The notes under the pieces were generated by a model, which was not told the DNA's origin, did no database searches, and saw only the letters and a program-made list of their open reading frames with translations. The translations under genes were made by a program, and so were the position numbers. Below, one piece after another: positions 16,342 to 62,417 of a stretch of 64,000 nucleotides of DNA (positions are counted from its first letter, which is position 1; the number at the start of each line of letters is the position of its first letter). This stretch comes from Pseudomonadota bacterium (GTDB lineage: Bacteria; Pseudomonadota; Alphaproteobacteria; MED-G09), in contig JAYYUG010000097.1 in assembly GCA_036344135.1 (NCBI GenBank), forward strand, positions 8,034-72,033, given 5' to 3'.

Positions 16342-17697
16342 ATGGGAAAAATGTTTAAAGATCTTGACCCGGACACGATGGTTCGATCGCCAGGTATTAC
16401 TTATCAGGAACTACTTGATACTGATTCACACGATGTTCCTGATGTATTAAGAATCCAATCACCAAAAGATCTTGGGCATTCAGAATTCTCGGTAGAACGT
16501 TACATTTCTAAAGACTGGCATGACAAAGAAGTTGAAAGAATGTGGAAAAAAATCTGGCAATTTGTATGTAGGGAAGAAGATATTGCTGAACCAGGCGACC
16601 ATTATCGTTATGATATTGCTGGAATTTCATTTCTCATTCTTCGTACAGAGACGAATGAGATTAAAGCCTATCCCAATTCATGTCTTCACCGTGGTCGGAT
16701 GCTCAAAGAGTTTGATGGTCACGCTTCCGAATTACGATGCCCTTTCCATGGATTCTGTTGGCACCTTGATGGCTCATTAAAGCATATACCTGCAGATTGG
16801 GATTTCCCTCAGATAGATAAAGAAAATTTTTCTTTACCTGAACTACCAATCGCTATCTGGGGAGGATTTGTGTTTATTAATCCTGACCAGCAATGCGAAC
16901 CATTTGATGATTTCATTAAGGATATGAAGACTCAGTTTGAACGTTGGGAACCAGAAAAGCTATATAAACAAGCGCATGTTGCAAAAATCGTGCCTTGTAA
17001 CTGGAAAATCGCACAAGAGGCTTTCTGCGAGGCCTATCATGTCAGCGGAACCCATCCACAAATTTTACCAAGTTTGGGGTGTGTTAATAGTCAGATCGAT
17101 GTTTGGGATAATTGCGCCCGAGTTATTACACCATCAATGACACCTAGTCCTCTTTTAGATTACGAACTTTCTGAAAAAGATATGATGCGTACCATGATGG
17201 ATCTACCACCGGAAGCCCAGGTTCCAGAATTACCAAAAGACATGAATCCTCGAGAGTTTATGGCGAATAGTAGCAGAGAGGATTTAAGGCCTAACGCAGG
17301 AAGTAAAGTTGATGAATATTGTGATGCTGAAATATTAGATAGCCTCGATTATACCTTGTTTCCAAATTTTCATCCGTGGGGTGCATTTAATAAAATAGTG
17401 TATAGATTTAGGCCCAATGGTAACGATCACCGATCAGCGATTATGGAATGCATTATGCTTTCGCCATTTCAAGGAGAAAGACCGCCTCCAGCTCCCATTC
17501 ATTGGTTGAAAGAAGATGAAAAATGGTCCAGTGCCTTGGGTTTTTTAGGTAAAGTTTTCGATCAAGATACTTTCAATATGCCTAAGGTACAACTTGGACT
17601 AGAATCTACCTACAAGTCAGGAATCACACTATCTGGTTACCAGGAAGGGAAGGTTCGTTGGTTACATCACAAATTGACTGAATGGGTGGGAGAATAA
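16342..17697 (+). CDS. Rieske non-heme iron oxygenase, alpha subunit (paralog 2)
   Basis: CLHRGRML...CPFHGFCWH; catalytic-iron motif EAYHVSGTH; clear paralog of 39763 and 60993 genes. Confidence 0.9.
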   Translation: MGKMFKDLDPDTMVRSPGITYQELLDTDSHDVPDVLRIQSPKDLGHSEFSVERYISKDWHDKEVERMWKKIWQFVCREEDIAEPGDHYRYDIAGISFLILRTETNEIKAYPNSCLHRGRMLKEFDGHASELRCPFHGFCWHLDGSLKHIPADWDFPQIDKENFSLPELPIAIWGGFVFINPDQQCEPFDDFIKDMKTQFERWEPEKLYKQAHVAKIVPCNWKIAQEAFCEAYHVSGTHPQILPSLGCVNSQIDVWDNCARVITPSMTPSPLLDYELSEKDMMRTMMDLPPEAQVPELPKDMNPREFMANSSREDLRPNAGSKVDEYCDAEILDSLDYTLFPNFHPWGAFNKIVYRFRPNGNDHRSAIMECIMLSPFQGERPPPAPIHWLKEDEKWSSALGFLGKVFDQDTFNMPKVQLGLESTYKSGITLSGYQEGKVRWLHHKLTEWVGE

Positions 17698-26178: not shown

Positions 26179-28083
26179 TTATTTCTTATCGGATTGATTT
26201 CCCGTTTTACAAGATGGCGGGATATCTAAGGTCGGATTTTTATCAAAAAACCCTACTGGCATTAAATGAAAACCACAATACTCCACAGGCATTACCGGCC
26301 AATCCTCTGGTCTAGGAATATGACTTAACCCAAAAGTATGCCATGTCACAAGATCACATTTTGAAATATCTCTATCATTTTTAGTATAATCTTCTAAACC
26401 TGATTCTCCATCACTCATCACTGTATAACTTCCGGCCGCTCCTAGCTCCTCAGAATTATAAGGAGTAGCCCACAAGTTATGTTTCGCAAAAGCGGCTCTT
26501 TTACTAACGATAGAATCTGGATTGGAAAGAAGTTTAGGTGTCGCTCCTGGTAAAAGTTTATATGCTACTGGAACTCCCAAAGAATTTTTTTTATTAGGAT
26601 TAACCACTTTCCAGACTCGACTTGTTTCAGGAGAGATTTCTCTTTTTGCATCACTTTCTTTTGTTAGATGGGAAGCAACAGAGCTGAATTGCGTCCCATT
26701 TGGATTGTTCTCACTGACGGGAAGCAATTGAATTTCTGTTTCAAATAACTGATTTTCTTTTCCATCCAACTCCCAATCTAATCGAAAACAAAAAAGATGT
26801 TGATGAAGAGGTGCAGCTAAATTGTTCGCAACTTTTGGAGCTTGTGAAGGATTGTACGTCTCCTCAGTTATAGCACTAATTCCCATTATACCGGTCAACT
26901 TAACTTCCATCTGAATTGTTCCATCTAAATACAAATACCAAAATAATCCATAATCGTAATTGCCTACAGTAAATATAGAGCTAATAACGAGTCTTCGGGA
27001 TCTACGTACTTCACTTGCTCCACCCCTATCATCGGAATGCTTCCATTGAATCCCATAATCTTCCTCATGAAGACAAATGGCATTCTCAGTCTTGATTATT
27101 TCTCCATCCCAATTGATTTGATTAATATCAAAGTATTGAATCTCTCCAATACAATCACAACCAAGTGTAAGAGAATTAATAAATCTTCCTAAACCAAACT
27201 CGCTTCCGTCGAAAACATGCTTCCATGAATGCATGGGGTCGGAATCACCATATGGAACAACCATATCAGACAAGGCTGCACGGTATAAAATTGAGCGATC
27301 GTTTAAGGATAACTCATGTAGAACTAGACCATGAACATCGTGAATAGAAATTCTAAATTTCCAACCCTGCCAAGATATATGATAACCGTCCACCTCAAAA
27401 CTTGGTCCATTCGGTTGAGTTATATTTATAGTTTTTAATCCTTCGCGTATCTTAGACTGAGACTCAATATCGTAACGCGCCTGTTCCTTTGGAATTGGCA
27501 CCACCCCATGATCTTCTACATGAACAACTTTACCAAGTGTGACATCTACCCAAGAAATTACTCCCTGAATAGGTTTGGCATAACCATTATCATCTATACT
27601 TTCTTTAAGGAATGAAATGCATTTAAGGGCTCGATGACCAGGTTTTACGGTTTCATGAACAAAACCTCCTGCGGGCCATGGATCAATATGAAGAAGTTCA
27701 AAATTGGTTATACCTCGTTTCTCTAAGGCTTTTTGGTATTCAGGGTTTTGAATTGTTAACCCTATCGCAGTCATCATTTCTTCCATATTATATGGAGCTT
27801 GGCCATTAGCCTTTAATCTTTCATATGAAACAAACTGATTTTTGACGATATCAATTTTAGCACAAAAACCCCCGTCTGGATTTTTATCAGATCCTAATAA
27901 TTTGACCTTTCGTGGAATAGGGTCATTTTCTTTATAATCTCTAACAATAGATTTATCCGGCTCATCAAGAATAGCAGAAATAAATGTTGATCCTTCTTTA
28001 AATCTTTTATCTGACTTTAGTAATTCCACTGCTTTTTCAATTTCATGAGATTCCAAGGGATCTAAGGGATGTTTTAAAGTCAT
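26179..28083 (-). CDS. Copper amine oxidase (TPQ-dependent primary-amine oxidase), no signal peptide
   Basis: TPQ consensus TVGNYDY; His copper ligands in C-terminal domain; 634 aa. Confidence 0.85.
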   Translation of the reverse strand: MTLKHPLDPLESHEIEKAVELLKSDKRFKEGSTFISAILDEPDKSIVRDYKENDPIPRKVKLLGSDKNPDGGFCAKIDIVKNQFVSYERLKANGQAPYNMEEMMTAIGLTIQNPEYQKALEKRGITNFELLHIDPWPAGGFVHETVKPGHRALKCISFLKESIDDNGYAKPIQGVISWVDVTLGKVVHVEDHGVVPIPKEQARYDIESQSKIREGLKTINITQPNGPSFEVDGYHISWQGWKFRISIHDVHGLVLHELSLNDRSILYRAALSDMVVPYGDSDPMHSWKHVFDGSEFGLGRFINSLTLGCDCIGEIQYFDINQINWDGEIIKTENAICLHEEDYGIQWKHSDDRGGASEVRRSRRLVISSIFTVGNYDYGLFWYLYLDGTIQMEVKLTGIMGISAITEETYNPSQAPKVANNLAAPLHQHLFCFRLDWELDGKENQLFETEIQLLPVSENNPNGTQFSSVASHLTKESDAKREISPETSRVWKVVNPNKKNSLGVPVAYKLLPGATPKLLSNPDSIVSKRAAFAKHNLWATPYNSEELGAAGSYTVMSDGESGLEDYTKNDRDISKCDLVTWHTFGLSHIPRPEDWPVMPVEYCGFHLMPVGFFDKNPTLDIPPSCKTGNQSDKK

Positions 28084-39762: not shown

Positions 39763-41175
39763 ATGAGCGAGAGAATTAAAGAAAAAGAAGAAAATTTAGA
39801 ACCGGGAGAGGCCCGATCTCCATTTACAAGTTACACTGAATATTTAGAAGAAGACTCAAAAAAATTACCAGATTTTATGATGGACGAAAACTATGAGTTT
39901 CTTGGTTCTGAAGATATTTCAATGGAAAGATATACTTCCAAAGAATTCTTCAAAAAAGAAGCGGAATGCATGTGGACTAGAGTCTGGCAATTTGCTTGTA
40001 GAGTGGAAGATATTCCTGAGGTAGGTGATAGCCTAGTTTATGATATTCTTGATTACTCATTCCTAATAGTAAGATCTGAAGAAAATAAGATTCAAGCTTT
40101 TTACAACTCTTGCCTTCATAGAGGAAGAAAATTAAAAACAGAAAGAGGTATTAGTAAAGATATCGAATGCCCATTCCACGGATATTGTTGGAATCTTGAT
40201 GGTACATTGAAACACACACCTGCTGCATGGGATTTTCCTCATGTCAAAGCAGATAAGTGGAGCCTTCCAGAAGTAAGAGTTGAACTTTGGCAGGGTTTTG
40301 TTTTTATTAATATGGATGATAATGCGGTTTCTCTCGAAGAATATTTAGCCCCATTACCCGAACATCATGAAAGATGGAATTTAGCAGATTGTAAAAAAGT
40401 TATTCATGTTTCTAAAGTAGTCCCAGGAAATTGGAAAACGGTTCAAGAGGCTTTTATGGAAGCCTTTCATGCTACAAAAATTCATCCTGAGATACTTCCT
40501 TTCCAAGCTGATGAAAACGCAAGATATGATATTTATGGTGATCATATGAATAGAAACTTAGCTCTTGTTGGTAAGCCCGGACCCCATTGTTGGCCAGTTA
40601 CTGAACAAGAAATACTAGATACAATCTCTTATGGTTCTGGGAGGGTTTTTGATGAAAATAAGACTATAGTTCCAGAAGGAGAAGAAGCAAGAAAAGTAGC
40701 AGCAGAAGCTGCTAGAAAAGCTTATAATGAGGCTGATGGACATGATTACTCAGATAAATCCGACGCGGAAATGCTCGATGCTTTAGTCTATAATGTTTTT
40801 CCAAATTTTTCACCTTGGGGTGGATTTCCTAGAAATCTTATTTATAGGTTTAGACCAAATGGTACTAGAGAAGATTCAGCTATTATGGAAGCTTTCTTTC
40901 TTCAAAGGAATCATAAAGACCCTGAAAAACAAGAACCTTACGAACCTATTCCTATTCACTACCTTAGTGAAGATGAAAACTGGGATGACGCTGAAGAGTT
41001 AGTAGGTATCGGTTTCATATTTGATCAGGATATGTCAAATATACCGGAAGTTGAAAAAGGAATGAGAGCCTCAAAAAAAGGTGCAGTGACTTATGCAAAC
41101 TATCAAGAAAGCCGTATCCGTCATTACCATCAGACAATAGATAAATATATTTCTAAAGGACCTTTTAAACCTTAA
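39763..41175 (+). CDS. Rieske non-heme iron oxygenase, alpha subunit (paralog 3)
   Basis: CLHRGRKL...CPFHGYCWN; catalytic-iron motif EAFHATKIH. Confidence 0.9.
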   Translation: MSERIKEKEENLEPGEARSPFTSYTEYLEEDSKKLPDFMMDENYEFLGSEDISMERYTSKEFFKKEAECMWTRVWQFACRVEDIPEVGDSLVYDILDYSFLIVRSEENKIQAFYNSCLHRGRKLKTERGISKDIECPFHGYCWNLDGTLKHTPAAWDFPHVKADKWSLPEVRVELWQGFVFINMDDNAVSLEEYLAPLPEHHERWNLADCKKVIHVSKVVPGNWKTVQEAFMEAFHATKIHPEILPFQADENARYDIYGDHMNRNLALVGKPGPHCWPVTEQEILDTISYGSGRVFDENKTIVPEGEEARKVAAEAARKAYNEADGHDYSDKSDAEMLDALVYNVFPNFSPWGGFPRNLIYRFRPNGTREDSAIMEAFFLQRNHKDPEKQEPYEPIPIHYLSEDENWDDAEELVGIGFIFDQDMSNIPEVEKGMRASKKGAVTYANYQESRIRHYHQTIDKYISKGPFKP

Positions 41176-53764: not shown

Positions 53765-53986
53765 TAATTATATTTTATTCTAACGAAGCAGTACATATAA
53801 TAAATAGATTGTGCTAAGTAAAGATCAATTTTGATTGTCTAAAAGATAAGAAGAAATATAATACATCAAGAGGAAGTATTTATTTATCTTCTTTTATAAA
53901 TAGTTAATTTATCTTGATTTTGACATAATTATTTTTTATAGAAACTGAAGTATGAATATTTTATTTCTACAGAAGGAGTAAATTAA

Positions 53987-54385
53987 ATGAAGTTAGAAAA
54001 GTTTAAAAACTTTCGATTTAAAGCCCTTTTAGCTGTACTTATATTTTCTTTTTCTTCTGTGAGCTCTTGGGCAGCAATCGTTGATATAGGATATGTTGGC
54101 GAAGATGAAACTGAAATCGAAATAACAAGAGGGTATTCCAAACAACCTACTTTCCCGAGAAAAGCAATCAGACTCGGAAAAGAGGGATATGTAGTGGTCG
54201 AATTTGATATAGACACTGATGGTGCTGTTCTGGACCCCTATGTGGTCGTCGCAGTTCCCCAAGGAGTTTTTGAAAGAGCTGCAATTAAGGCTGTTAGAAA
54301 ATGGGTTTATGAAGCTCCTACTTACAATGGTCAATCAGTTAAAGCCAATAACGTCCAAGTTAAATTAACTTTTTCACTGAATTAA
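53987..54385 (+). CDS. Periplasmic TonB C-terminal-domain protein
   Basis: Signal peptide; PTFPRKAIRLGKEGYVVVEFDIDTDGAV...AAIKAVRKWVYEAP matches TonB_C fold signature. Confidence 0.6.
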   Translation: MKLEKFKNFRFKALLAVLIFSFSSVSSWAAIVDIGYVGEDETEIEITRGYSKQPTFPRKAIRLGKEGYVVVEFDIDTDGAVLDPYVVVAVPQGVFERAAIKAVRKWVYEAPTYNGQSVKANNVQVKLTFSLN

Positions 54386-54426
54386 CTTATGAGATTGTTT
54401 GAATTTACAAACAATCTAAGTTTAGC

Positions 54427-57423
54427 TTGATGTCTATTAGGGCTCAGCTACTCTTATTTGTAGTTATAGGTTACTTATTAATTGCCGTTGTCTTTTTCTT
54501 ATCCACTCAAACTAGAGATTCGATTCAGCAAGATGCTGCTGGTGAGTCCTTGGTTGTTCTTTATGAATCCGCCTGGTATCAGACATACAACAACACCTAT
54601 GATTTAATGGGTCGTTGGTTACCTGGTTACGGCGAAAAAGGAAATATATGGGATCCCGATGACGAAACATTTATAGATGAGGTAGATGCACAGGGAAAAT
54701 ATTTAAACCCAATATTCAATACGATAGAAAACAGATCATTGGGAGATCTTCAGTATCTAATTGAGTTTATCTTCGAAGAAGAGTTAGACGAAGGTGACTT
54801 GAGTTTTGTTATGGCTTATTTTCCCACTGGCGAAAGATTTTACTGTGGAAGCGCCTTAGATTTGCTTGGTATAGATCCTTGTAGCCCAAAAGCGAGACTA
54901 GGGTTTTTCTCATATCTCGACTCCTACATAAAAGATATTTCACAAAGACCTAAACAATCTACTCTCAAGATTCTTGATTCAGAAAACAAGCAGACAACAA
55001 CTCTTAATCAAACTTATTCTTTTCCAATAAAGGTGAACAAAAAAACAATTGCTTTGATAGTTCTAGGGGTTGATGTACGAAAGGCAATTGAGGTTTTTGA
55101 AGATGAGTTTGAAGTAAGAACCGGTATAAAAACTCCTGAGGGTTTAATTTCCTTAGAGGAAGATTATTCATCCGACGATTTGAATATCGAAGCAAGATAC
55201 GGTATAGAAAATTACTCAGAGTTGGTTGCAAAGGCTAACCTTCTTATGGAATCGAAAGGAAGTAGATACAGCGACAAAGATTTTTCTCTTGGTACCTCAA
55301 TTACTCTGTTACCTTTAAGTTCATATCTTTCCTCTGACAAGGCAGAATTATTTATTTTTAAAGATGAGAAGATCTCAATGGCTAGATCTTCTGAGGTTCT
55401 TACGAGAAGCTATATTATTGTAACTTTAATGCTTTTGCTTATTGTCTCTTTAACCTCATTCGTCACTTACCGGACATTCGGAGGTATAACAAGAGCAATT
55501 AAAGTTTTAGAAGGTCTTACAAAAGGTGATCATACTCAACAAATGCCAAAAAGATCAGGTCTGATGGCTTCTGAAAATGATGAAGTAGGTCAACTATCAA
55601 CTGCTCTTCATAGCTATAGAGGTCATTTATTGGAGATGGAGGATATTAGAAAAGAACAAGCCCAAAGAAGAAAAGAAAGAGACAGAGTTATTATTGAGAA
55701 GATGTCTTTTCTAGCTGATCAACTAGAGGGAGACGCACAAAAACTTATTCTTGAGGATGTCGAAAAAATGACAGAACTGGCAAAGAAGGGTGATGATGTG
55801 GACTCCGAAGAGGCATCAGTCGAATTAATGTCTCTAGCATTCTCTCGAATGTCTGATGAAGTAAATGCTTTGATCGCAGCAAGAACAACTGAGATGGAAT
55901 CTTCCAGAGATGAAGCAAGGGACGCTAATGAAGAAAAGACAAGATTTTTCGCAAACATGAGTCATGAACTTAGGACTCCGCTTAACGCTATTTTAGGATA
56001 CGGAGAGATGCTTGCAGAAGATTGTGAAGACCTGGGTTATGATGATCTTTTGCCTGACTTAAAGAAAATTACTTCTGCAGGTAGTCACCTTCTCTCATTA
56101 ATCAACAATATTCTGGATATTTCAAAGATTGAAGCAGGAAGGATGGAGCTCTATTTAACCAGTTTTGAAATAGAATCCATGGTGGAGACAATTAAAGATG
56201 TTACCGGACCTTTAGCCTCTGCTAATGATAATGGTTTTAAAGTCAATTTACAGGACGTTTTAGGATCCATGACTCAAGATGAAACAAAGATTAGACAATG
56301 CTTGACCAACTTCTTGAGTAATGCATTTAAATTCACTTTAAGTGGAACGGTAACTCTTGATGTAGATACTTTCATGCAAGACGAATTAGAAATGATCAGG
56401 TTCGCGGTAACGGATACGGGCGAAGGAATGACAGAAGAAGGTCTCAGTAAAGTATTTAGGGAATATGAGCAAGCTGAAAGATCAACATCTGCTAAACACG
56501 GTGGTACTGGTCTAGGTCTACCTATCACAAAGAAACTCGCAGAAATGATGGGAGGAGATGTAATGGTTACCAGTGAGCTTGGAGCGGGGTCAGTTTTTAC
56601 CCTTTATGTTCCAAGAGTATGTCCACAAGAACACGATGAAGTAGAGGACGCTAATGCAATAAGCAAACTCTCTGATAAGGAGAAAGTAGTTGTCTTAATT
56701 GATGATGATGTCCCAATTCATGATATTATTAGAAGGACTCTATCAAAGATTGGTCTCACTCTTATCGGTGCAACTGATGGTGAAAAAGGCTTACAAATAG
56801 TCAGAGAAATGAAACCCAAGCTTCTTTTATTAGATGTCTTGATGCCTGGTAGGGATGGATGGTCTATCCTTAAAGAGTGCAAGTCTGATCCTGAACTAAG
56901 AGATATGCCAGTAGTTATGGTCAGCCAGCTATCACAGGACGTTCTTTCAGAATCATTAGGTGCGGATGATTATCTTACAAAACCTATCGATAGAGATTTG
57001 TTTCTAGAAACTGTCCAACGACTAATTAAAGATTCTCCGAATGGCGAAAATAAAGTTCTTGTTATTGACGATGATGCTGATGTCAGAGAATTACTTTCTA
57101 GGATGCTTAAGGATGCAGGATGGATTTCAGTAACAGCAAGAGATGGTAAAGAGGGTCTGGAAAAAGTAAAAGACACACCTTCGTTAATAGTTCTTGACCT
57201 TGAGATGCCGCGAATGGATGGATTTGAATTCTTAGATGCCTATATGAAGAACTATAACGAGTTAAACCGTGCACCTATACTGGTTTACTCTGGAAAAGAT
57301 CTTTCCGAAGTTCAAAAAGATATTTTGAATAAGAATGTCGCCGGTATGGTTAGAAAAGATGAGGTTTCAATGGATGAACTCTCAAAAATTGTGAAAAATA
57401 TTTATCAAGAATCTATCTCCTAG
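54427..57423 (+). CDS. Hybrid sensor histidine kinase (periplasmic sensor-TM-HisKA-HATPase_c-REC-REC)
   Basis: Two TM segments flanking a ~300-aa periplasmic domain; H-box FFANMSHELRTPLNAILGY; N/G boxes; two receiver domains (VLIDDD...LLDVLMPGRDG and VLVIDDD...LDLEMPRMDG). Confidence 0.9.
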   Translation: MMSIRAQLLLFVVIGYLLIAVVFFLSTQTRDSIQQDAAGESLVVLYESAWYQTYNNTYDLMGRWLPGYGEKGNIWDPDDETFIDEVDAQGKYLNPIFNTIENRSLGDLQYLIEFIFEEELDEGDLSFVMAYFPTGERFYCGSALDLLGIDPCSPKARLGFFSYLDSYIKDISQRPKQSTLKILDSENKQTTTLNQTYSFPIKVNKKTIALIVLGVDVRKAIEVFEDEFEVRTGIKTPEGLISLEEDYSSDDLNIEARYGIENYSELVAKANLLMESKGSRYSDKDFSLGTSITLLPLSSYLSSDKAELFIFKDEKISMARSSEVLTRSYIIVTLMLLLIVSLTSFVTYRTFGGITRAIKVLEGLTKGDHTQQMPKRSGLMASENDEVGQLSTALHSYRGHLLEMEDIRKEQAQRRKERDRVIIEKMSFLADQLEGDAQKLILEDVEKMTELAKKGDDVDSEEASVELMSLAFSRMSDEVNALIAARTTEMESSRDEARDANEEKTRFFANMSHELRTPLNAILGYGEMLAEDCEDLGYDDLLPDLKKITSAGSHLLSLINNILDISKIEAGRMELYLTSFEIESMVETIKDVTGPLASANDNGFKVNLQDVLGSMTQDETKIRQCLTNFLSNAFKFTLSGTVTLDVDTFMQDELEMIRFAVTDTGEGMTEEGLSKVFREYEQAERSTSAKHGGTGLGLPITKKLAEMMGGDVMVTSELGAGSVFTLYVPRVCPQEHDEVEDANAISKLSDKEKVVVLIDDDVPIHDIIRRTLSKIGLTLIGATDGEKGLQIVREMKPKLLLLDVLMPGRDGWSILKECKSDPELRDMPVVMVSQLSQDVLSESLGADDYLTKPIDRDLFLETVQRLIKDSPNGENKVLVIDDDADVRELLSRMLKDAGWISVTARDGKEGLEKVKDTPSLIVLDLEMPRMDGFEFLDAYMKNYNELNRAPILVYSGKDLSEVQKDILNKNVAGMVRKDEVSMDELSKIVKNIYQESIS

Positions 57424-57782
57424 CTTATTAAGCTTTCGATTTTTTCGAGAAGTCTTTTAAAATCTATAGGTTTTGTATCAAAATCATCTGCTCCGCACGC
57501 CAAAGCCTTTACTCTATCGGACTCTAAAGCGTGTGCTGTCAAAGCTATAATTGGTATCTCTTTAATTTCATCATCTGCCTTTGCAGTTGTTGTGGCCTCC
57601 CAACCGTCCATGACCGGTAATCCCATATCCATTAGCACTAGATCAGGTTTCTCAGATTTCATCATCTCAATTCCTTCTTTTCCGTCAAGGGCAAGGAAAA
57701 CCTCATAATTTCTTCTTTGAAGCCTTCTTGATAACATATCTCTATTCATTTCGTTGTCCTCAACATATAATATCTTTGCCAT
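57420..57782 (-). CDS. Single-domain response regulator (CheY-like REC)
   Basis: ILYVEDNEMNRDML...DLVLMDMGLPVMDG...ALTA...K. Confidence 0.9.
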   Translation of the reverse strand: MAKILYVEDNEMNRDMLSRRLQRRNYEVFLALDGKEGIEMMKSEKPDLVLMDMGLPVMDGWEATTTAKADDEIKEIPIIALTAHALESDRVKALACGADDFDTKPIDFKRLLEKIESLIS

Positions 57783-57795
57783 CTTATTTCCTTTT

Positions 57796-59265
57796 TTAAT
57801 TATTCAAAATAAACTTATCTCTTCCTGTCTTTTTCGCTTCATAAAGCCTCTTGTCTGCCTTATTAACTACATCAGAGATATTTCCAGATTCAGATGTTAA
57901 CGCTATTCCTCCACTCGCAGTGATAGTAATTGATTGACCTTCGTAATCAACTTTAACAGCATGAATACTAGATCTCAATTTATCGCAAAATTCAGAAATA
58001 TTTTTACCATCCTCATTAAAGATTACCGCTAAAAACTCTTCACCGCCGATTCTACCAACAATGTTAGGTTCAGAAATAAAGCTGTCTAAGGTATTAGCTA
58101 GAGCCTTCAAAACCTCATCACCTCCAGAATGACCATAAGTATCATTGACTGTCTTAAAGAAATCTATGTCAATCATAATAACTGTAAAATCTTTACGCTT
58201 TCCATCTTGTAGTTCTGAATATGCGTCTTCAAGAGTTTCGAAAATAACTCTTCTATTATGAATCCCTGTTAGTTGATCGGTGGTGGCTTGGATATGAAGC
58301 GTATTAACAAGCTCCTTTTCCCTTTCTCGAAAGAACTTTCTTTCCAAGGAAGATATAACTTTGGCTAATAATATAGTACCGTTAAGAGGTTTGGGAAGAT
58401 AATCTTGAGCTCCCAATTGTATGCATTTAGCAATTCCATCTACATCATTAAATGCAGAAACCATAATTATTGGGAGATTTTCGCTTCTGTTGTCCTTTCT
58501 AAATCTCTTAAGTAACTCCAATCCATTAATGTCGGGCAGTATTACATCTAGAAGAATTAGATCAGGTAGTTTTTTATTAACCTCCTCAATAGCACTATTT
58601 CCATCATAAGCTATTCTGCAATTCAAGCCCTGCAATTCAAGCCTTCTTTTAAGAACCTCACAATTAGTAACATTATCATCAACTATTAAAATATCTGCAC
58701 CCTGCAAGCTTTCATCTAAGTCGAGAGAAAAATCTATATCACCCAGAGATTTAAACAAAGATTCAGCAGTTTCTAATTGTGAAGAACCTTCATCATTTGT
58801 TTTTGAAGGCTCTCCTCGGATATAATCAACAAAAGTCTCTATGGCTTTCTCAGTCTCTCTGGAAAGATTTATTATCTTGTGGAAATCCAATAAGGCCTCC
58901 TTCGACAAATCGTCCTCTAAATCTTCTATTAGAATTTCGCTATAACCAATAATGGCATTTAGAGGGGTTCTTAGATTATGCCTTAACTCTGAATACTCCT
59001 CCGGTTTTCTTTCTTCTGTGGTAGCATTTGACCCGGTATTTTCTTCGAAAGCTTCCTCATATTGTTCAATAAGTTTAATACAACCTGATTTAATCTGATC
59101 TATCTCATCCCCAGCAGCAATATTGGCCTCGTTGATACTTTTTTCAATCATCTCTAGATAATCAGAGATTGCACCTACAGGAGTAGTGAATTCTTGTTTA
59201 ATCTGAGCTAAAATAATATCTCTAGCCCCTTTGGGAGCTTTATTTCCTGTGACCTTACTCATCAT
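57796..59265 (-). CDS. HisKA-like (x2, no ATPase) - REC - GGDEF diguanylate cyclase
   Basis: N-terminal H-box-like segments (QEFTTPVGAISDY lacking His; ELRHNLRTPLNAIIGY with His); REC ILIVDDN...LLDVILPDINGLE; GGDEF with GGEEF active site and RxxD I-site-like region. Confidence 0.85.
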   Translation of the reverse strand: MMSKVTGNKAPKGARDIILAQIKQEFTTPVGAISDYLEMIEKSINEANIAAGDEIDQIKSGCIKLIEQYEEAFEENTGSNATTEERKPEEYSELRHNLRTPLNAIIGYSEILIEDLEDDLSKEALLDFHKIINLSRETEKAIETFVDYIRGEPSKTNDEGSSQLETAESLFKSLGDIDFSLDLDESLQGADILIVDDNVTNCEVLKRRLELQGLNCRIAYDGNSAIEEVNKKLPDLILLDVILPDINGLELLKRFRKDNRSENLPIIMVSAFNDVDGIAKCIQLGAQDYLPKPLNGTILLAKVISSLERKFFREREKELVNTLHIQATTDQLTGIHNRRVIFETLEDAYSELQDGKRKDFTVIMIDIDFFKTVNDTYGHSGGDEVLKALANTLDSFISEPNIVGRIGGEEFLAVIFNEDGKNISEFCDKLRSSIHAVKVDYEGQSITITASGGIALTSESGNISDVVNKADKRLYEAKKTGRDKFILNN

Positions 59266-60349
59266 GATTTCCGATTAAAGTATCCAAAAACTCAGGTTTA
59301 TGCATAAGAAAACCCTGACCTATTTTGCATCCAATCTTTACCATGGAGGCTTTCTGTTCCTCTGTCTCTATGCCTTCTCCTATCATTTCTAATGAAAGGG
59401 AGTTGCAAACTTCAACTACAAATTTAATAAGTTGTGCTGTTGATTTATCATCTAATCCATTAGTAAAATGTTTATCCAGTTTAATGACGTCTAAGGGAAG
59501 ATCTTTGACATATTTAAGTGATGCATAACCAGCGCCAAAGTCGTCTAACGCAATTTTTATTCCTTTTTCTTTAAGTACATTTAGATATTTACTTGCCTTC
59601 ATAGTATCACTTAATTCAGCAGTCTCAGTTACTTCAAGTCCAAATTCTCCGGGTTCAAATTCAAAACTATCAGCAAAATCTGCAAATATTTTGCTGAACT
59701 CTGGGTGCATAATCGTATGAGCAGAAACATTTAAATATACAGTTGCGTTTTTCAGACCAATTTTATTTTTAACAGGAAATATTTCTGAAAGTTTCTTCAA
59801 AGATGATTTAACAACAAGAGAAAATAGACTTTCTCCTTCAATTTGAGGAATTATTATGTCATTAGGGATAATTTTACCCTCATCATCTCTTAACCTCAAC
59901 AGAGCCTCAACACCTGTCACTTCTCCCGTTTCTAGATTAAACTGCTTTTGATAAGCTAAATCAATACGGTCATACTCTACACAGGATATTGTTTGTTTGA
60001 GGGCTTCCAATCCAAGACGTGATTCACACAAAACCTCTATAAGTAGGAAATTATCAGAATCCTCTGAGGGGATTAGGTGAATTCTAGTTGTTATATAAAA
60101 TTCGATTTTTCGAAGACATATTTCAATAGAAGTGGAATAGGTGTTAGCTATTAAATCTTTGGAAGATTGAGAGTCTTCATCTATTTTAATATTTTTTATT
60201 GTTAGGTCAGATGTGTTTCCTGTACGAAATATGTACTCAGACGCCAGATTTATCCACTTAATGGTTCCATCTGTTTCACAGATAATGTAAGGGCTCGGAT
60301 GATGCATTAGAGATTTGAATAAATAATCTAGGTGATTTGAAGAATCCAT
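59255..60349 (-). CDS. EAL-domain c-di-GMP phosphodiesterase with N-terminal sensory domain
   Basis: EALLR, DDFGAGYAS, KLDKHF, GEGIETEEQ catalytic motifs. Confidence 0.85.
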   Translation of the reverse strand: MDSSNHLDYLFKSLMHHPSPYIICETDGTIKWINLASEYIFRTGNTSDLTIKNIKIDEDSQSSKDLIANTYSTSIEICLRKIEFYITTRIHLIPSEDSDNFLLIEVLCESRLGLEALKQTISCVEYDRIDLAYQKQFNLETGEVTGVEALLRLRDDEGKIIPNDIIIPQIEGESLFSLVVKSSLKKLSEIFPVKNKIGLKNATVYLNVSAHTIMHPEFSKIFADFADSFEFEPGEFGLEVTETAELSDTMKASKYLNVLKEKGIKIALDDFGAGYASLKYVKDLPLDVIKLDKHFTNGLDDKSTAQLIKFVVEVCNSLSLEMIGEGIETEEQKASMVKIGCKIGQGFLMHKPEFLDTLIGNHDE

Positions 60350-60359
60350 TTCCGAGCCT

Positions 60360-60815
60360 TTAAATTTTATTTCTTTGTTCTTCTACAAGCTTAACAAAAT
60401 TCTTGGGAAACGTTGGAGACACCCAATCCCAAATTTCGAGGTTCTTTTTATCTCTTAAGAGGGTTCTAAATGATGATAACATTGCTATCCATTCTTCCTC
60501 ATCTAGCATACCAATAACATATTGATAATGTTGGTTCTGTCTTGCTCTTAAAATGGCTGTAAAGTGGGTTAGGTATATTGAGTTCTCTTCTTCATCAAGT
60601 TCTTCACCTTTTCTCAGTTTTACTTTGATCTTTACGATATCTTTATTAAGTCCAGCTAATGTTAGTTTTTGGTGACTATCAGCCATATTTTGCCGAGCAT
60701 TAGCTCTCGCAACTCTATTTTGCTCCTTCAGCTCTGTAACAAGGAAATAGACCGTTACAAGAACAGTAAAAGGACCGACAGTCTGGAGAATTATTACTAT
60801 TGTCTCAAAACCCAT
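60360..60815 (-). CDS. Hypothetical membrane-anchored protein
   Basis: 151 aa; single N-terminal TM helix, charged coiled region. Confidence 0.4.
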   Translation of the reverse strand: MGFETIVIILQTVGPFTVLVTVYFLVTELKEQNRVARANARQNMADSHQKLTLAGLNKDIVKIKVKLRKGEELDEEENSIYLTHFTAILRARQNQHYQYVIGMLDEEEWIAMLSSFRTLLRDKKNLEIWDWVSPTFPKNFVKLVEEQRNKI

Positions 60816-60992
60816 AAGCAGACTCCTTACTCATAATTTTAATCATAATTTTCCTTATAGCTAATTATATTTTATTCCAACTCAATAGTACATATGAGAA
60901 AAAGCGTATGATTAGCAAATATTTTACAAAATAAAGTGTTGTTGTTAATATCGATGGTGCTGTTGTCAAGATGGCTGGGGGAATCTAAAACC

Positions 60993-62417
60993 ATGAAAGT
61001 GATCAAAGCAAAAGATATGAATTATAAAGCCAACGGTGATGGTCCCACCTTGCAAAAAGTTTTTGATGGTGACAGCATCCAACCACCAGCAGCCTTTCGA
61101 GAAGACCCCAGTATGGAACTGGGTACAGCTGACATCTCTATCGATCGTTACACTTCCCAAGAATGGCATCAAGCCGAAGTAAAGAATGTCTGGCAAAAGG
61201 TTTGGCAGGTTGCCTGCCGATTAGAGGAAATCCCCGAGATAGGCGACTACGTTGTCTACGACATTGTAGACGACAGCTTAATCATTACCCGTACGAGTGA
61301 AAACGAAGTACATGCCTATTTTAATGCCTGTCTGCATCGTGGGAATGCTCTATGTATGGAAAATGGCCATGCCGAGAAATTCCGCTGTCCTTTCCATGGT
61401 TTTACTTATTCTTTGCAAGGCAAACTTGAATCTATCCCCAGTGACTGGGATTTTCAGCATGTCGACAAGAATGAATATTCCTTGCCCGAGGCCAAGGTCG
61501 GTTTTTGGGGTGGTTTTGTCTTTGTTAATCTCGACCCGAATTGTGGGTCTCTGGAAGATTATCTGGAGATCATCCCTAAGCATCTTGATGGATTTGATTT
61601 TGATAAAAAGTATAAGGCTATCCATTTATCTAAGGTGATGCCGTGCAATTGGAAGGTCTGCCAAGAGGCCTTTATTGAAGGCTATCATGTCGCCGAAACC
61701 CATTATGAACATACAGCTGATGGTGGTATCGACCCAGATGGTATTGGCTCCTTCATGGATGATGTAATGATGCAATATGATGTCTGGCCTGAAAGCAAGC
61801 ACGTGACCCGCATGATCCTGGCAAGCGGTGTCGCCAGCCAACATGTCGCTAAGCACGACCGGTCCGAACAACACATTATCGATATGATGTTACACTATCT
61901 GCCTGAAGACCAACGCCCGCAGTTGAAAGAAGGTGAAAAGGCCCGCCCTGCCCTTGCTGAACATAGCCGAAAAACACTTGGTGCCTTGTATGGCGTTGAT
62001 CTATCGCAACACAGTGACACAGATGTTCTAGACCAGGTGGAATACACACTTTTTCCAAACTTTACCTTTTGGCCAACCCTGTTTGCACCGTTGCTGTATC
62101 GTTTCAGGCCCCACGGCCATAATGTCGATGAAAGCATCATGGAAGTGTACATGCTTTATCCTATCCCCGAAGATGGACGAGACTATAAAACAAGTGAAGA
62201 AGTACGGCTGGCACCCGGTGAAACGTGGTCTTCACGCTCCGAACTTGGTAATTACGGCCCTATTCTCGACGAAGACACTCCCAATATGATCCGCATGACC
62301 AAAGGGCTGAAGACATCGCGTAAGCCGGGAATCACTCTCGCCAACTACCAGGAAAACCGCTTGCGCCAGTTTCATGGAGTTTTGGATGATTATGTTGGCG
62401 GGAAATACAAGAAATGA
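60993..62417 (+). CDS. Rieske non-heme iron oxygenase, alpha subunit (paralog 4, in GC-rich island)
   Basis: CLHRGNAL...CPFHGFTYS; catalytic-iron motif EGYHVAETH; ATG 60993 with GGGGAA RBS preferred over upstream GTG 60936; GC ~50% vs ~37% background. Confidence 0.85.
   Translation: MKVIKAKDMNYKANGDGPTLQKVFDGDSIQPPAAFREDPSMELGTADISIDRYTSQEWHQAEVKNVWQKVWQVACRLEEIPEIGDYVVYDIVDDSLIITRTSENEVHAYFNACLHRGNALCMENGHAEKFRCPFHGFTYSLQGKLESIPSDWDFQHVDKNEYSLPEAKVGFWGGFVFVNLDPNCGSLEDYLEIIPKHLDGFDFDKKYKAIHLSKVMPCNWKVCQEAFIEGYHVAETHYEHTADGGIDPDGIGSFMDDVMMQYDVWPESKHVTRMILASGVASQHVAKHDRSEQHIIDMMLHYLPEDQRPQLKEGEKARPALAEHSRKTLGALYGVDLSQHSDTDVLDQVEYTLFPNFTFWPTLFAPLLYRFRPHGHNVDESIMEVYMLYPIPEDGRDYKTSEEVRLAPGETWSSRSELGNYGPILDEDTPNMIRMTKGLKTSRKPGITLANYQENRLRQFHGVLDDYVGGKYKK

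What the first reader, a model, noticed from the sequence alone, without database searches (positions are those of the whole stretch)
53987..60815. Compact phosphorelay and c-di-GMP module: TonB_C protein, hybrid HK, single-domain REC, DGC and PDE
Six genes form a self-contained signalling island. They are a secreted TonB-C-terminal-domain protein, a hybrid HK with a ~300-aa periplasmic sensor of unknown type and two receiver domains, and, convergent to it, a CheY-like REC, the HisKA-REC-GGDEF protein, an EAL phosphodiesterase (8-bp overlap with the cyclase gene) and a membrane-anchored hypothetical. The HK stop overlaps the REC gene end (57420-57423). A TonB_C-only periplasmic protein next to a sensor kinase suggests sensing linked to outer-membrane transport status. 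The window is rich in TonB-dependent receptors.
Basis: partly seen in the sequence, partly recalled or inferred. Interest (0 to 1): 0.55.

Follow-up and report, generated by a model that had tools for sequence, protein, structure and literature searches.

The report
TonB-domain partner, Cache kinase, c-di-GMP relay

Summary
The six genes are real, lie at the stated coordinates and are conserved as a set across about 55 SAR86 species genomes.

1. The kinase's "unknown" periplasmic sensor is a very divergent double-Cache fold. It belongs to a rare family, with 207 cluster representatives among 1.84 billion proteins.

2. A stand-alone, signal-peptide-bearing TonB_C gene lies directly upstream of this sensor in every testable hybrid-kinase locus (54; one needed manual inspection). 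The same holds in all 17 testable SiaA-like PP2C loci and all 3 loci where the sensor is fused to a class III cyclase. Sensor identity falls as low as 25–34%. The TonB_C protein is therefore a dedicated partner of the sensor. It is neither an energy transducer nor a gene fragment.

3. The cyclase N-terminus is a tandem of a degenerate DHp hairpin (Gln24) and an intact one (His96, no ATPase domain). It is modelled as a single-chain four-helix bundle. No HPt domain is present, so this bundle is the likely second histidine of a His-Asp-His-Asp relay.

Not supported or not tested:
- The claim that the window is rich in TonB-dependent receptors is not supported; there is one.
- The link to outer-membrane transport status remains untested.

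Verdict: a new variant of known kinds, of moderate to high interest.

The parts
53835..53862 (+). Promoter-like site (TTGTCT-16-TATAAT) upstream of the TonB_C gene
   Evidence: It is one of the two best matches (10 of 12) in the region. The total number of matches is not above the shuffled expectation, so this is only suggestive.
53987..54385 (+). Secreted stand-alone TonB C-terminal-domain protein, 132 aa. It has a signal peptide (aa 1-29), a conserved N-terminal extension (aa 30-52) and a TonB_C domain (aa 53-131).
   Evidence: Pfam TonB_C has E=6.9e-19. The best solved relatives are Vibrio TonB2 (2k9k, E=8e-14) and E. coli TonB from the BtuB complex (2gsk), and QPTFP aligns with QPQYP. Small residues at the -3 and -1 positions after the hydrophobic segment recur in orthologues. 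All 120 listed relatives are 108-147 aa. The gene is directly upstream of the sensor in 53 of 54, 17 of 17 and 3 of 3 loci.
54392..54417 (+). Intergenic hairpin (10-bp perfect stem) between the TonB_C and kinase genes
   Evidence: Folding gives dG -12.3 kcal/mol and z -2.84. A comparable hairpin occurs in only 4 of 50 related loci, so it is lineage-specific and probably not essential.
54430..57423 (+). Hybrid sensor histidine kinase. The ORF runs from TTG 54427; the likely start is ATG 54430.
   Evidence: Homologues begin MSIR.
54508..55401 (+). Periplasmic divergent double-Cache sensor domain (aa ~28-325) with an invariant Cys140/Cys152 pair, flanked by TM1 and TM2
55477..55926 (+). HAMP-like segment and long signalling helix (aa ~351-500), conserved across all three output types up to the point where the outputs diverge
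   Evidence: Alignments. A weak HAMP hit appears in a paralogue. The junction segment is shared with the PP2C and cyclase types.
55936..56616 (+). Kinase core: HisKA (His513, H-box SHELRTPLN) and HATPase_c
56689..57015 (+). Receiver domain 1 of the kinase, with canonical acceptor Asp, Ser, Tyr and Lys-Pro
57049..57399 (+). Receiver domain 2 of the kinase. The acceptor Asp is present, but the aromatic switch residue and Lys-Pro are missing, which makes it look like an intermediary receiver.
   Evidence: The criteria come from PMC9981736.
57420..57782 (-). Single-domain receiver protein (120 aa), last gene of the convergent operon
   Evidence: Pfam Response_reg has E=3.3e-27. It is conserved in 52 of 54 loci.
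57796..59265 (-). Four-helix-bundle / REC / GGDEF protein (489 aa)
59035..59232 (-). Degenerate DHp hairpin (aa 12-77) with the pseudo-H-box KQEFTTPVGAISDY, where Gln24 stands in place of His
   Evidence: It aligns in register with both true H-boxes, and the motif is kept in 51 of 54 orthologues. Gln24, Phe26, Pro29 and Ile33 are invariant, including in homologues of 25% identity. The model has helices 12-46 and 54-77 at pLDDT around 90.
58816..59004 (-). Intact DHp hairpin (aa 88-150) with His96 (LRHNLRTPLN) and no ATPase domain after it
58357..58692 (-). Receiver domain of the cyclase protein
   Evidence: Pfam E=7.2e-28. The closest solved relative is PleD.
57817..58287 (-). GGDEF diguanylate cyclase domain. 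The GGEEF active site is intact, and there is no RxxD inhibitory site.
   Evidence: Pfam E=2.8e-39. Motifs were checked.
59255..60349 (-). EAL phosphodiesterase (EAL domain aa 125-352, 59294-59977) with an unassigned, PAS-like N-terminal 120 aa
   Evidence: Pfam EAL has E=1.8e-47. The EALxR, DDFG and EGIE motifs are present. The N-terminus has no Pfam hit even at E<=1.
60360..60815 (-). Membrane-anchored 151-aa protein of unknown function, first gene of the convergent operon. Its TM helix is nearly invariant and His48 is invariant.
   Evidence: It is present in 44 of 46 loci and genuinely absent from L032 and L042.
60921..60948 (-). Promoter-like site (TTAACA-16-TAAAAT) upstream of the 151-aa gene
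   Evidence: It is the other best match (10 of 12), and is only suggestive.

Best explanation
This is a two-operon c-di-GMP control module of SAR86.

**Operon 1** encodes two proteins.
- A small Sec-secreted protein consists of little more than a TonB C-terminal domain.
- A hybrid histidine kinase has a periplasmic part that is a divergent double-Cache domain.
- The TonB-domain protein acts in the periplasm as a dedicated binding partner (co-sensor or modulator) of the Cache domain. LuxP does this for LuxQ, and DbfQ does it for DbfS. The partner sets the balance between kinase and phosphatase activity.

**Proposed relay.**
1. The kinase autophosphorylates on His513 and passes the phosphoryl group to a receiver Asp. 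The receiver is its own C-terminal receiver domain, the 120-aa stand-alone receiver, or both.
2. The phosphoryl group moves to His96 of a single-chain four-helix bundle at the N-terminus of the cyclase protein. That bundle is made of one degenerate and one intact DHp hairpin and has no ATPase domain.
3. It then moves to the cyclase's own receiver Asp, which switches on the GGDEF domain.

The co-transcribed EAL phosphodiesterase degrades c-di-GMP.

**Shown:** the gene set, the domains and motifs, the conservation, and the strict pairing of the TonB_C gene with the sensor across three output types.

**Inferred:** physical binding of the TonB_C protein to the sensor, the path of the phosphoryl group, and the nature of the signal.
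For: **Pairing of the TonB_C gene with the sensor**
- The TonB_C gene is co-directional and 9-58 nt upstream in kinase loci, and 50-66 nt upstream in PP2C loci.
- It is 3 and 41 nt upstream in the cyclase-fusion loci.
- It is present in 53 of 54 kinase loci, 17 of 17 PP2C loci and 3 of 3 cyclase-fusion loci, although sensor identity is only 25-34% between types.
- The sensor family is rare, and full-length members carry three different outputs.

**The TonB_C protein is a binding module, not an energy transducer**
- It is 132 aa with a signal-peptide-like N-terminus that contains no His.
- There is no proline-rich spacer.
- The domain core is canonical, with QPTFP aligning to QPQYP of E. coli TonB.

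**The sensor is a double-Cache fold**.

**The relay**
- No HPt family hit was found in any of the six proteins.
- The cyclase protein has HisKA without HATPase_c.
- The H-box LRHNLRTPLN is kept in 53 of 54 orthologues. Asn replaces the acidic residue at +1, which fits loss of autokinase chemistry while the His is retained.
- Helix 1 is 17/23 identical to the kinase's DHp, so both can dock the same receiver.
- The tandem pseudo-DHp plus DHp arrangement is conserved even at 25% identity.
- Receiver 2 of the kinase lacks the allosteric aromatic residue, like intermediary receivers (PMC9981736).
- GGEEF and the EAL catalytic motifs are intact.

**Precedent for small secreted partners encoded beside kinases:** DbfQ-DbfS (PMC12714742).
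Against: - No physical interaction was tested.
- An AlphaFold monomer run will tend to pack two hairpins together even if the real protein forms a dimeric eight-helix assembly.
- The His+4 Thr (HNLRT) is also compatible with a phosphatase-only role.
- An HPt protein may exist elsewhere in the genome, which could not be scanned.
- In L078 a second sensor paralogue has no TonB_C gene of its own.
Confidence: 0.55

Rival explanations
1. This is transporter-occupancy sensing, the strong form of the first reader's idea. The secreted TonB_C protein binds the TonB boxes that ligand-loaded TonB-dependent receptors expose in the periplasm. It partitions between those boxes and the Cache sensor. Second-messenger output then reports how many outer-membrane receptors are loaded with substrate.
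For: - The domain is a close homologue of genuine TonB C-terminal domains, including the one crystallised on the BtuB TonB box. It keeps the QPxYP segment.
- SAR86 has a disproportionate number of TonB-dependent receptors (PMC3358033; PMC11582366).
- In L080 a receptor fragment lies directly upstream of the TonB_C gene.
Against: - Receptor genes are not consistently adjacent. There is one in the 64-kb window, 41 kb away, and in L003 the nearest lies about 6 kb upstream.
- No binding data or co-fold could be obtained.
- TonB_C-like folds are also used for other protein-protein contacts.
Confidence: 0.2
2. This is a plain branched two-component system with no multi-step relay. The kinase phosphorylates the 120-aa receiver and the cyclase's receiver directly from His513. 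The kinase's own receivers act as phosphate sinks. The cyclase's N-terminal helical bundle serves only as a dimerisation or scaffold element, or as a dedicated phosphatase for its receiver.
For: - The shared helix-1 specificity residues (17/23) mean the kinase DHp could itself dock the cyclase's receiver.
- GGDEF enzymes need dimerisation.
- The HxxxT phosphatase signature is retained in HNLRT.
Against: - A pure scaffold would not need an invariant His and a complete H-box across 53 of 54 orthologues and in homologues of 25% identity.
- Hybrid kinases normally require a second His carrier, and none other is encoded in the module.
Confidence: 0.25
3. The TonB_C gene encodes a minimal but genuine TonB-type energy transducer for nearby receptors. 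It is merely co-regulated with the sensor rather than acting on it.
For: - Annotation pipelines name these proteins 'energy transducer TonB'.
- The Pfam and NCBIfam TonB C-terminal models match.
Against: - All NCBIfam full-length TonB equivalog scores are far below cut-off, for example 59.5 against 265.
- The protein is 132 aa with no proline-rich spacer.
- Its N-terminal hydrophobic segment has no His and is followed by small -3/-1 residues typical of signal peptidase sites.
- No ExbB or ExbD gene is seen among the called genes of the related loci examined.
- The gene follows the sensor, not receptors, in 73 of 74 cases.
Confidence: 0.04

Closest known systems
LuxP-LuxQ (Vibrio autoinducer-2 sensing) and TorT-TorS
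   Same: - A periplasmic protein encoded next to a hybrid histidine kinase binds its periplasmic sensor domain. In LuxQ that domain is a tandem PAS/Cache-like fold.
- The partner sets kinase against phosphatase activity.
- A hybrid kinase feeds a multi-step phosphorelay.
   Different: - Here the partner is a TonB C-terminal domain, not a periplasmic solute-binding protein.
- The second His carrier is DHp-derived and fused to the final regulator, not a separate HPt protein such as LuxU.
- The output is c-di-GMP synthesis rather than a transcription factor.
- Binding is inferred here, not shown.
DbfQ-DbfS of Vibrio cholerae (PMC12714742)
   Same: - A single-domain protein of about 130 aa, secreted by Sec, is encoded directly beside a sensor kinase.
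- DbfQ binds the sensor domain and controls a pathway that ends in c-di-GMP and biofilm changes.
- The gene pairing is conserved across taxa.
   Different: - DbfQ is a PepSY domain, whereas this protein is a TonB_C domain.
- DbfS is a classical kinase with an OmpR-type regulator, not a hybrid kinase with a relay to a cyclase.
Spo0F-Spo0B-Spo0A (Bacillus) and CckA-ChpT-CtrA (Caulobacter) phosphorelays
   Same: - These are His-Asp-His-Asp relays in which the second His sits on a DHp-type helical bundle that cannot bind ATP.
- A single-domain receiver (Spo0F) or the hybrid kinase's own receiver (CckA) shuttles the phosphoryl group.
   Different: - Spo0B and ChpT are homodimers with a degenerate ATPase-like domain and are separate proteins.
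- Here the bundle appears to be a single chain, made of a duplicated hairpin with only one His.
- It has no ATPase remnant and is fused to the terminal REC-GGDEF regulator.
- Phosphotransfer was not tested.
PleD / WspR-type REC-GGDEF response regulators
   Same: - A receiver domain controls a GGDEF cyclase.
- PleD is the best solved match to the REC part and the best NCBIfam match.
   Different: - There is an extra N-terminal four-helix phosphotransfer-like module.
- There is one receiver, not PleD's two.
- There is no RxxD inhibitory site.
- The NCBIfam PleD score of 235 is below the cut-off of 474.
SiaABCD partner-switch system of Pseudomonas aeruginosa (PMC7647112, PMC8457831)
   Same: - Sister loci (L003 and others) combine the same TonB_C/sensor cassette with a SiaA-like PP2C domain, SiaC and a SiaB-family kinase.
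- That shows the sensor module is interchangeable between kinase and phosphatase outputs that govern cyclic-nucleotide synthesis.
   Different: - The window locus has no PP2C, SiaB or SiaC.
- The sensor region does not match the SiaA model, which matches only the PP2C part.
- In the sister loci the output enzyme is a class III cyclase, not the GGDEF protein SiaD.
TonB and FecA-FecR cell-surface signalling
   Same: - The TonB C-terminal domain fold is shared.
- Both involve the idea that events at TonB-dependent receptors are relayed to the cytoplasm.
   Different: - There is no membrane anchor, spacer or ExbBD coupling.
- No receptor with an N-terminal signalling domain, no anti-sigma factor and no ECF sigma factor is present in the module.

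Membership tests
TonB energy transducer | C-terminal TonB_C domain | tested here: met
   Pfam PF03544 scores 68.5 bits against a cut-off of 24.6. The PDB TonB2 and TonB C-terminal domains match at E 8e-14 to 6e-9.
TonB energy transducer | Uncleaved N-terminal membrane anchor with the conserved His that couples to ExbB/ExbD | tested here: not met
   The N-terminal hydrophobic segment (aa 13-29) has no His. It is followed by small -3/-1 residues (SWA|A), a pattern that recurs in orthologues. Cleavage itself was not measured.
TonB energy transducer | Long proline-rich periplasm-spanning spacer and a full-length match to TonB equivalog models | tested here: not met
   The mature protein is about 103 aa, with a 23-aa extension that is not Pro-rich. 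The best NCBIfam TonB equivalog scores 59.5 bits against a cut-off of 265.
dCache_1 / double-Cache extracellular sensor domains | Fold: a long N-terminal helix followed by membrane-distal and membrane-proximal PAS-like modules between two TM helices | tested here: met
   The top Foldseek hits are dCache ligand-binding domains at probability 1.0.
dCache_1 / double-Cache extracellular sensor domains | Match to the curated sequence model | tested here: not met
   There is no Pfam hit in aa 1-500 at E<=0.01 and no NCBIfam hit. Identity to solved dCache domains is 10-14%.
Hybrid histidine kinase | HisKA with an H-box His, HATPase_c, and a fused receiver with an acceptor Asp | tested here: met
   for the domains, for His513 in SHELRTPLN, and for the acceptor Asp in both receivers.
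HPt (PF01627) phosphotransfer domain | Match to the HPt model in any of the six proteins | tested here: not met
   There was no HPt hit at E<=0.01 for any of the six proteins. There was also none at E<=1 for the cyclase N-terminus or the 151-aa protein. The rest of the genome could not be scanned.
Spo0B/ChpT-type (DHp-derived) histidine phosphotransferase | DHp helical hairpin carrying a conserved His, with no functional ATP-binding domain | tested here: met
   HisKA has E=1.6e-10 and no HATPase_c follows; the next domain is REC at aa 192. His96 is conserved in 53 of 54 orthologues.
Spo0B/ChpT-type (DHp-derived) histidine phosphotransferase | Homodimeric four-helix bundle with two His sites | tested here: inconclusive
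   Sequence and model indicate a single-chain bundle made of a pseudo-hairpin (Gln24) and a true hairpin (His96). The oligomeric state cannot be decided from a monomer model.
Spo0B/ChpT-type (DHp-derived) histidine phosphotransferase | Reversible Asp-His-Asp phosphotransfer | not testable with these tools
   This needs in vitro phosphotransfer profiling.
GGDEF diguanylate cyclase | GG[DE]EF active-site motif | tested here: met
   GGEEF lies at aa 407. Pfam GGDEF has E=2.8e-39.
GGDEF diguanylate cyclase | RxxD allosteric inhibitory site five residues upstream. This feature is common but not defining. | tested here: not met
   The sequence at that position is SEPN.
EAL c-di-GMP phosphodiesterase | Catalytic motifs (EALxR, DDFG, EGIE and others) | tested here: met
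   EAL at aa 148, DDFG at 269 and EGIE at 325. Pfam EAL has E=1.8e-47.
SiaABCD system | SiaA PP2C phosphatase, SiaB kinase, SiaC phosphoprotein and SiaD GGDEF cyclase | tested here: not met
   The window locus has none of SiaA, SiaB or SiaC. Sister loci have PP2C, SiaC and a SiaB-family kinase, but with a class III cyclase.

The most novel reading that the evidence does not exclude
The secreted TonB_C protein is a soluble reader of TonB boxes. It binds the TonB box that a substrate-loaded TonB-dependent receptor releases into the periplasm. By dividing its time between receptors and the Cache sensor, it tells the cell how much outer-membrane cargo is waiting. That information is converted into c-di-GMP in SAR86, or into cyclic mononucleotides in the sister lineages. 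This would be a general, receptor-independent form of cell-surface signalling. It would be built from a TonB domain freed from energy transduction, and coupled to a relay that uses a single-chain DHp bundle as its His carrier.
Probability: 0.2. Interest if true: 0.85.

Novelty: new variant of a known kind. Interest (0 to 1): 0.6.

Why it matters
[quoted passage not shown] It has a streamlined genome and relies heavily on TonB-dependent receptors. The two SAR86 genome papers consulted do not mention two-component or c-di-GMP signalling at all. A module kept in essentially every testable species genome is likely to be one of its main environmental decision circuits.

**Two general points follow.**
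1. A TonB C-terminal domain can be detached from energy transduction and reused as a dedicated periplasmic partner of a Cache sensor. The same two-gene input cassette is wired to three different outputs: hybrid kinase, PP2C partner switch and class III cyclase. That adds a new class to the short list of accessory proteins known to act on sensor kinases. It also gives a concrete, testable route by which outer-membrane nutrient capture could be reported to the cytoplasm.
2. The cyclase's N-terminus suggests that a homodimeric DHp domain can evolve by duplication into a single-chain, one-histidine bundle that does the job of an HPt domain.

**Annotation.** Pipelines currently name the small protein 'energy transducer TonB', which is misleading.

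Tried and rejected
1. **Exact-sequence look-up of the kinase.** No record was found, probably because the start codon is called differently.
2. **AlphaFold co-fold.** I submitted the TonB_C protein and the sensor ectodomain as a linker fusion, with a paired alignment from 22 species.
3. **AlphaFold of the 151-aa membrane protein.** Its fold therefore remains unknown.
4. **Match to the Pseudomonas SiaA sensor.** Rejected, because the NCBIfam SiaA model matches only the PP2C part of the sister proteins.
6. **PDB profile search with the cyclase N-terminal alignment.** It was swamped by receiver domains and was uninformative for the bundle.
7. **Intergenic hairpin (54392-54417) as a regulatory element.** Rejected as a general feature, since it is present in only 4 of 50 loci.
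8. **The 79-aa ORF in front of the second sensor paralogue in L078 as a cryptic TonB_C.** Rejected, because it has no Pfam hit and no tblastn match.
9. **ShkA-like c-di-GMP feedback through a pseudo-receiver.** I considered this because the HisKA-HATPase-REC-REC architecture is the same. It was not pursued, because both receivers here keep the acceptor Asp.
10. **Literature searches.** I looked for a TonB_C-only protein linked to a kinase, SiaA or Cache sensor, and for tandem or single-chain DHp modules. Nothing was found.
11. **Mirror-tree or covariation analysis of the TonB_C protein against the sensor.** Considered and not run. All genes are inherited together in the same genomes, and the roughly 66 unique pairs are too few and too similar to separate interaction from shared phylogeny.

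Full report
**Observation**

Their domain content is as described.
- 53987-54385 (+): a 132-aa protein with a TonB_C domain (68.5 bits against a cut-off of 24.6).
- 54427-57423 (+): a 998-aa protein with HisKA, HATPase_c and two receiver domains. It has no family hit in its first 500 residues.
- 57420-57782 (-): a 120-aa single receiver.
- 57796-59265 (-): a 489-aa protein with HisKA, receiver and GGDEF domains but no HATPase_c.
- 59255-60349 (-): a 364-aa EAL protein.
- 60360-60815 (-): a 151-aa protein with one N-terminal hydrophobic helix and no family hit.

The convergent kinase and receiver genes overlap by 4 nt. The EAL and cyclase genes overlap by 11 nt counting the stop codon, or 8 nt without it. 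Homologues of the kinase begin MSIR, so its real start is probably the ATG at 54430. The catalytic motifs are intact: GGEEF in the cyclase, and EALxR, DDFG and EGIE in the phosphodiesterase. The cyclase lacks the RxxD inhibitory site. Base composition of the module is the same as that of the window.

**Source and conservation**

The closest relatives of the sensor region are metagenomic and single-cell sequences labelled SAR86 cluster. A scan of one genome per species returned 72 loci. I searched each locus with the window's proteins and counted only loci whose contig reached far enough.

| Gene | Present / testable | Comment |
|---|---|---|
| TonB_C (directly upstream of kinase) | 53 / 54 | The miss, L002, has a frameshift-split sensor gene and does carry the TonB_C gene |
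| Single receiver | 52 / 54 | Both misses are threshold or truncation artefacts |
| Cyclase | 50 / 50 | |
| EAL | 48 / 48 | |
| 151-aa protein | 44 / 46 | Really absent from L032 and L042 |

Sensor identity across these loci ranges from 53 to 98%. Flanking genes differ between lineages.

The two strongest promoter-like matches in the region lie in the two expected upstream gaps. That fits two convergent operons: TonB_C-kinase, and 151aa-EAL-cyclase-receiver. The scan as a whole is not enriched over shuffles.

**The sensor**

A profile search of 1.84 billion cluster representatives found only 207 hits at E<=1e-3, most of them fragments. The full-length members carry three different cytoplasmic outputs after a shared HAMP and signalling-helix segment:
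- a hybrid kinase core with two receivers;
- a PP2C (SpoIIE) phosphatase;
- a class III nucleotidyl cyclase.

**The TonB_C protein is tied to the sensor, not to the output**

- In 17 of 17 testable PP2C-type loci a 126-aa TonB_C gene lies 50-66 nt upstream of the sensor gene. These loci come from the K189A clade and other Pseudomonadales MAGs, and their sensors are 32-34% identical to the window's. SiaC, a SiaB-family kinase and a convergent class III cyclase lie downstream.
- In the three loci where the sensor is fused directly to a cyclase, a TonB_C gene of 141-144 aa ends 3 or 41 nt before it.
- The only sensor gene without its own TonB_C gene is a second paralogue in L078. It sits about 1 kb downstream of a complete cassette.

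Adjacency kept across three output types, at 25-34% sensor identity, is strong comparative evidence that the two proteins work together.

The protein is not a gene fragment. All 120 listed relatives (of 317 hits) are stand-alone proteins of 108-147 aa.

It is also not an energy transducer.
- Full-length TonB models score far below their cut-offs.
- There is no proline-rich spacer.
- The N-terminal hydrophobic segment has no histidine and is followed by small -3/-1 residues in all lineages inspected, as expected for a cleaved signal peptide. Cleavage is an inference.

The domain core is a close relative of genuine TonB C-terminal domains. These include Vibrio TonB2 (2k9k, E=8e-14) and the E. 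coli domain crystallised on the BtuB TonB box (2gsk). QPTFP aligns with QPQYP. The mature protein also has a subfamily-specific N-terminal extension with a conserved Gly and an alternating, strand-like segment.

**The phosphorelay**

No HPt domain is detectable in any of the six proteins, yet the kinase is a hybrid. The cyclase protein carries a HisKA domain with no ATPase domain. Several features bear on its role.
- Its H-box, LRHNLRTPLN, is kept in 53 of 54 orthologues. Asn replaces the acidic residue next to the His. By established knowledge of HisKA kinases, that acidic residue serves autophosphorylation. The Thr at +4, which is linked to phosphatase activity, is kept.
- From the His onward, 17 of 23 helix-1 residues are identical to the kinase's own DHp. 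That is the region which determines receiver docking, so both histidine modules should recognise the same receiver.
- Upstream of this hairpin lies a second, degenerate copy. KQEFTTPVGAISDY aligns in register with both true H-boxes, with Gln24 in place of His. It is conserved in 51 of 54 orthologues and in homologues of only 25% identity.
- AlphaFold models residues 12-150 as four long helices, mostly at pLDDT above 90, with pTM 0.69.
- Foldseek found only non-significant generic bundles.

I read this as a DHp domain that has been duplicated into a single-chain bundle with one phosphorylatable histidine. Functionally it is the counterpart of an HPt domain or of Spo0B/ChpT, and it is fused to the terminal REC-GGDEF regulator.

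All four receivers in the module keep the acceptor Asp. The kinase's C-terminal receiver lacks the aromatic switch residue and the Lys-Pro motif. That is the pattern described for intermediary receivers (PMC9981736).

**Most likely mechanism**

1. The secreted TonB-domain protein binds the Cache ectodomain and modulates the kinase.
2. His513 phosphorylates a receiver Asp, either the kinase's own receiver 2 or the 120-aa receiver (the Spo0F analogue).
3. The phosphoryl group moves to His96 of the cyclase's bundle, and then to the cyclase's receiver.
4. The GGDEF domain is activated, and the EAL enzyme opposes it.

The gene content, motifs, conservation and pairing are shown. The binding, the path of the phosphoryl group and the signal are inferred. 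I put about 0.75 on the partnership, about 0.5 on His96 acting as a phosphoryl carrier, and about 0.2 on the signal being TonB-box exposure by loaded receptors.

**Rivals**

- A plain branched two-component system, in which the bundle is only a scaffold or a phosphatase, is compatible with the shared docking residues and with the HxxxT motif. It does not explain why a complete H-box with an invariant His is kept.
- A genuine mini-TonB is contradicted by the missing anchor features and spacer, and by the gene following the sensor rather than receptors.
- The occupancy-sensing idea is attractive because SAR86 genomes are unusually rich in TonB-dependent receptors (PMC3358033, PMC11582366). However, this window has only one such receptor, 41 kb away, and receptor genes are adjacent in only one related locus (L080).

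**Comparison with known systems**

| System | What is shared | What differs |
|---|---|---|
| LuxP-LuxQ, TorT-TorS, DbfQ-DbfS | Periplasmic partner encoded beside a kinase | DbfQ is a PepSY protein, and LuxP and TorT are solute-binding proteins; none is a TonB domain |
| Spo0F-Spo0B-Spo0A, CckA-ChpT-CtrA | Relay logic | The His carrier here is single-chain, lacks any ATPase remnant and is fused to the output regulator |
| SiaABCD | Sister loci carry PP2C, SiaC and a SiaB-family kinase | Different sensor, and a class III cyclase output |

Searches of the held literature found no description of a TonB_C-only protein paired with a kinase, SiaA or Cache sensor. They found no tandem or single-chain DHp modules, and no c-di-GMP signalling in SAR86.

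**Verdict**

The c-di-GMP enzymes themselves are ordinary. The input cassette (TonB-domain partner plus divergent Cache sensor, reused with three outputs) and the single-chain DHp-derived histidine module are new variants of known kinds.

Open points:
- the ligand or signal;
- the role of the highly conserved 151-aa membrane protein, with its invariant TM helix and His48;
- the function of the kinase's first receiver;
- the unassigned N-terminus of the EAL protein.

Noticed in passing
L003:9564-14363 (also L004, L005, L061-L076): In the K189A clade and other Pseudomonadales MAGs the same TonB_C/sensor cassette is fused to a SiaA-like PP2C domain. SiaC, a SiaB-family kinase and a convergent class III nucleotidyl cyclase follow it. 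This is a SiaABCD-like partner switch whose output appears to be a cyclic mononucleotide rather than c-di-GMP. The cyclase N-terminus weakly matches the SiaD stalk (E=0.001).
   Followed up: partly
L078:811-8550; L080:3-6023: The sensor is fused directly to a class III cyclase, with a TonB_C gene 3-41 nt upstream. L078 also carries a second SiaA-like sensor paralogue, with SiaC, SiaB and a cyclase, that lacks its own TonB_C gene. L080 has a TonB-dependent receptor fragment directly upstream, and HD-domain and cNMP-binding genes downstream.
   Followed up: partly
window:60360-60815: The 151-aa membrane protein is unusually constrained. Its TM helix (ILQTVGPFTVLVTVYFLVTEL) is almost invariant across 47 orthologues, and His48 in ADSHQK is invariant. 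It matches no family, and it is the only module gene that is sometimes absent (L032, L042).
   Followed up: partly
window:54844-54882 (kinase aa 140-152): An invariant cysteine pair (Cys140, Cys152) lies in the membrane-distal Cache module in all three output types. It may be a structural disulfide or a redox-sensitive element near the presumed ligand pocket.
   Followed up: no
window:54392-54417: A perfect 10-bp hairpin lies between the TonB_C stop and the kinase start (dG -12.3 kcal/mol, z -2.8). A comparable hairpin occurs in only 4 of 50 related loci.
   Followed up: yes
window:12798-14144, 16342-17697, 39763-41175, 60936-62417: The 64-kb window holds four Rieske ring-hydroxylating oxygenase alpha-subunit genes. 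It also has a copper amine oxidase (26179-28083), a flavin monooxygenase, an old-yellow-enzyme-type reductase and two MFS_2 transporters. There is only one TonB-dependent receptor (10197-12668).
   Followed up: partly
L006, L016, L046, L032, L042: Contigs with kinase sensors 57-97% identical to the window's are labelled Rhodobiaceae, Dehalococcoidia, Crocinitomicaceae or SAR92 in their MAG or SAG records. These are probably binning or labelling errors, and the contigs are probably SAR86.
   Followed up: no
window:59978-60349 (EAL protein aa 1-124): The N-terminal 120 residues of the EAL protein look PAS-like by eye (PSPYIICETDGTIKWINLASEYIF). They match no Pfam model even at E<=1.
   Followed up: partly
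P0031 (metagenome protein): The sensor N-terminus is joined to a HlyD-family C-terminus in a 559-aa predicted protein on a 2.4-kb contig. This is probably a chimeric assembly rather than a real fusion.
   Followed up: partly
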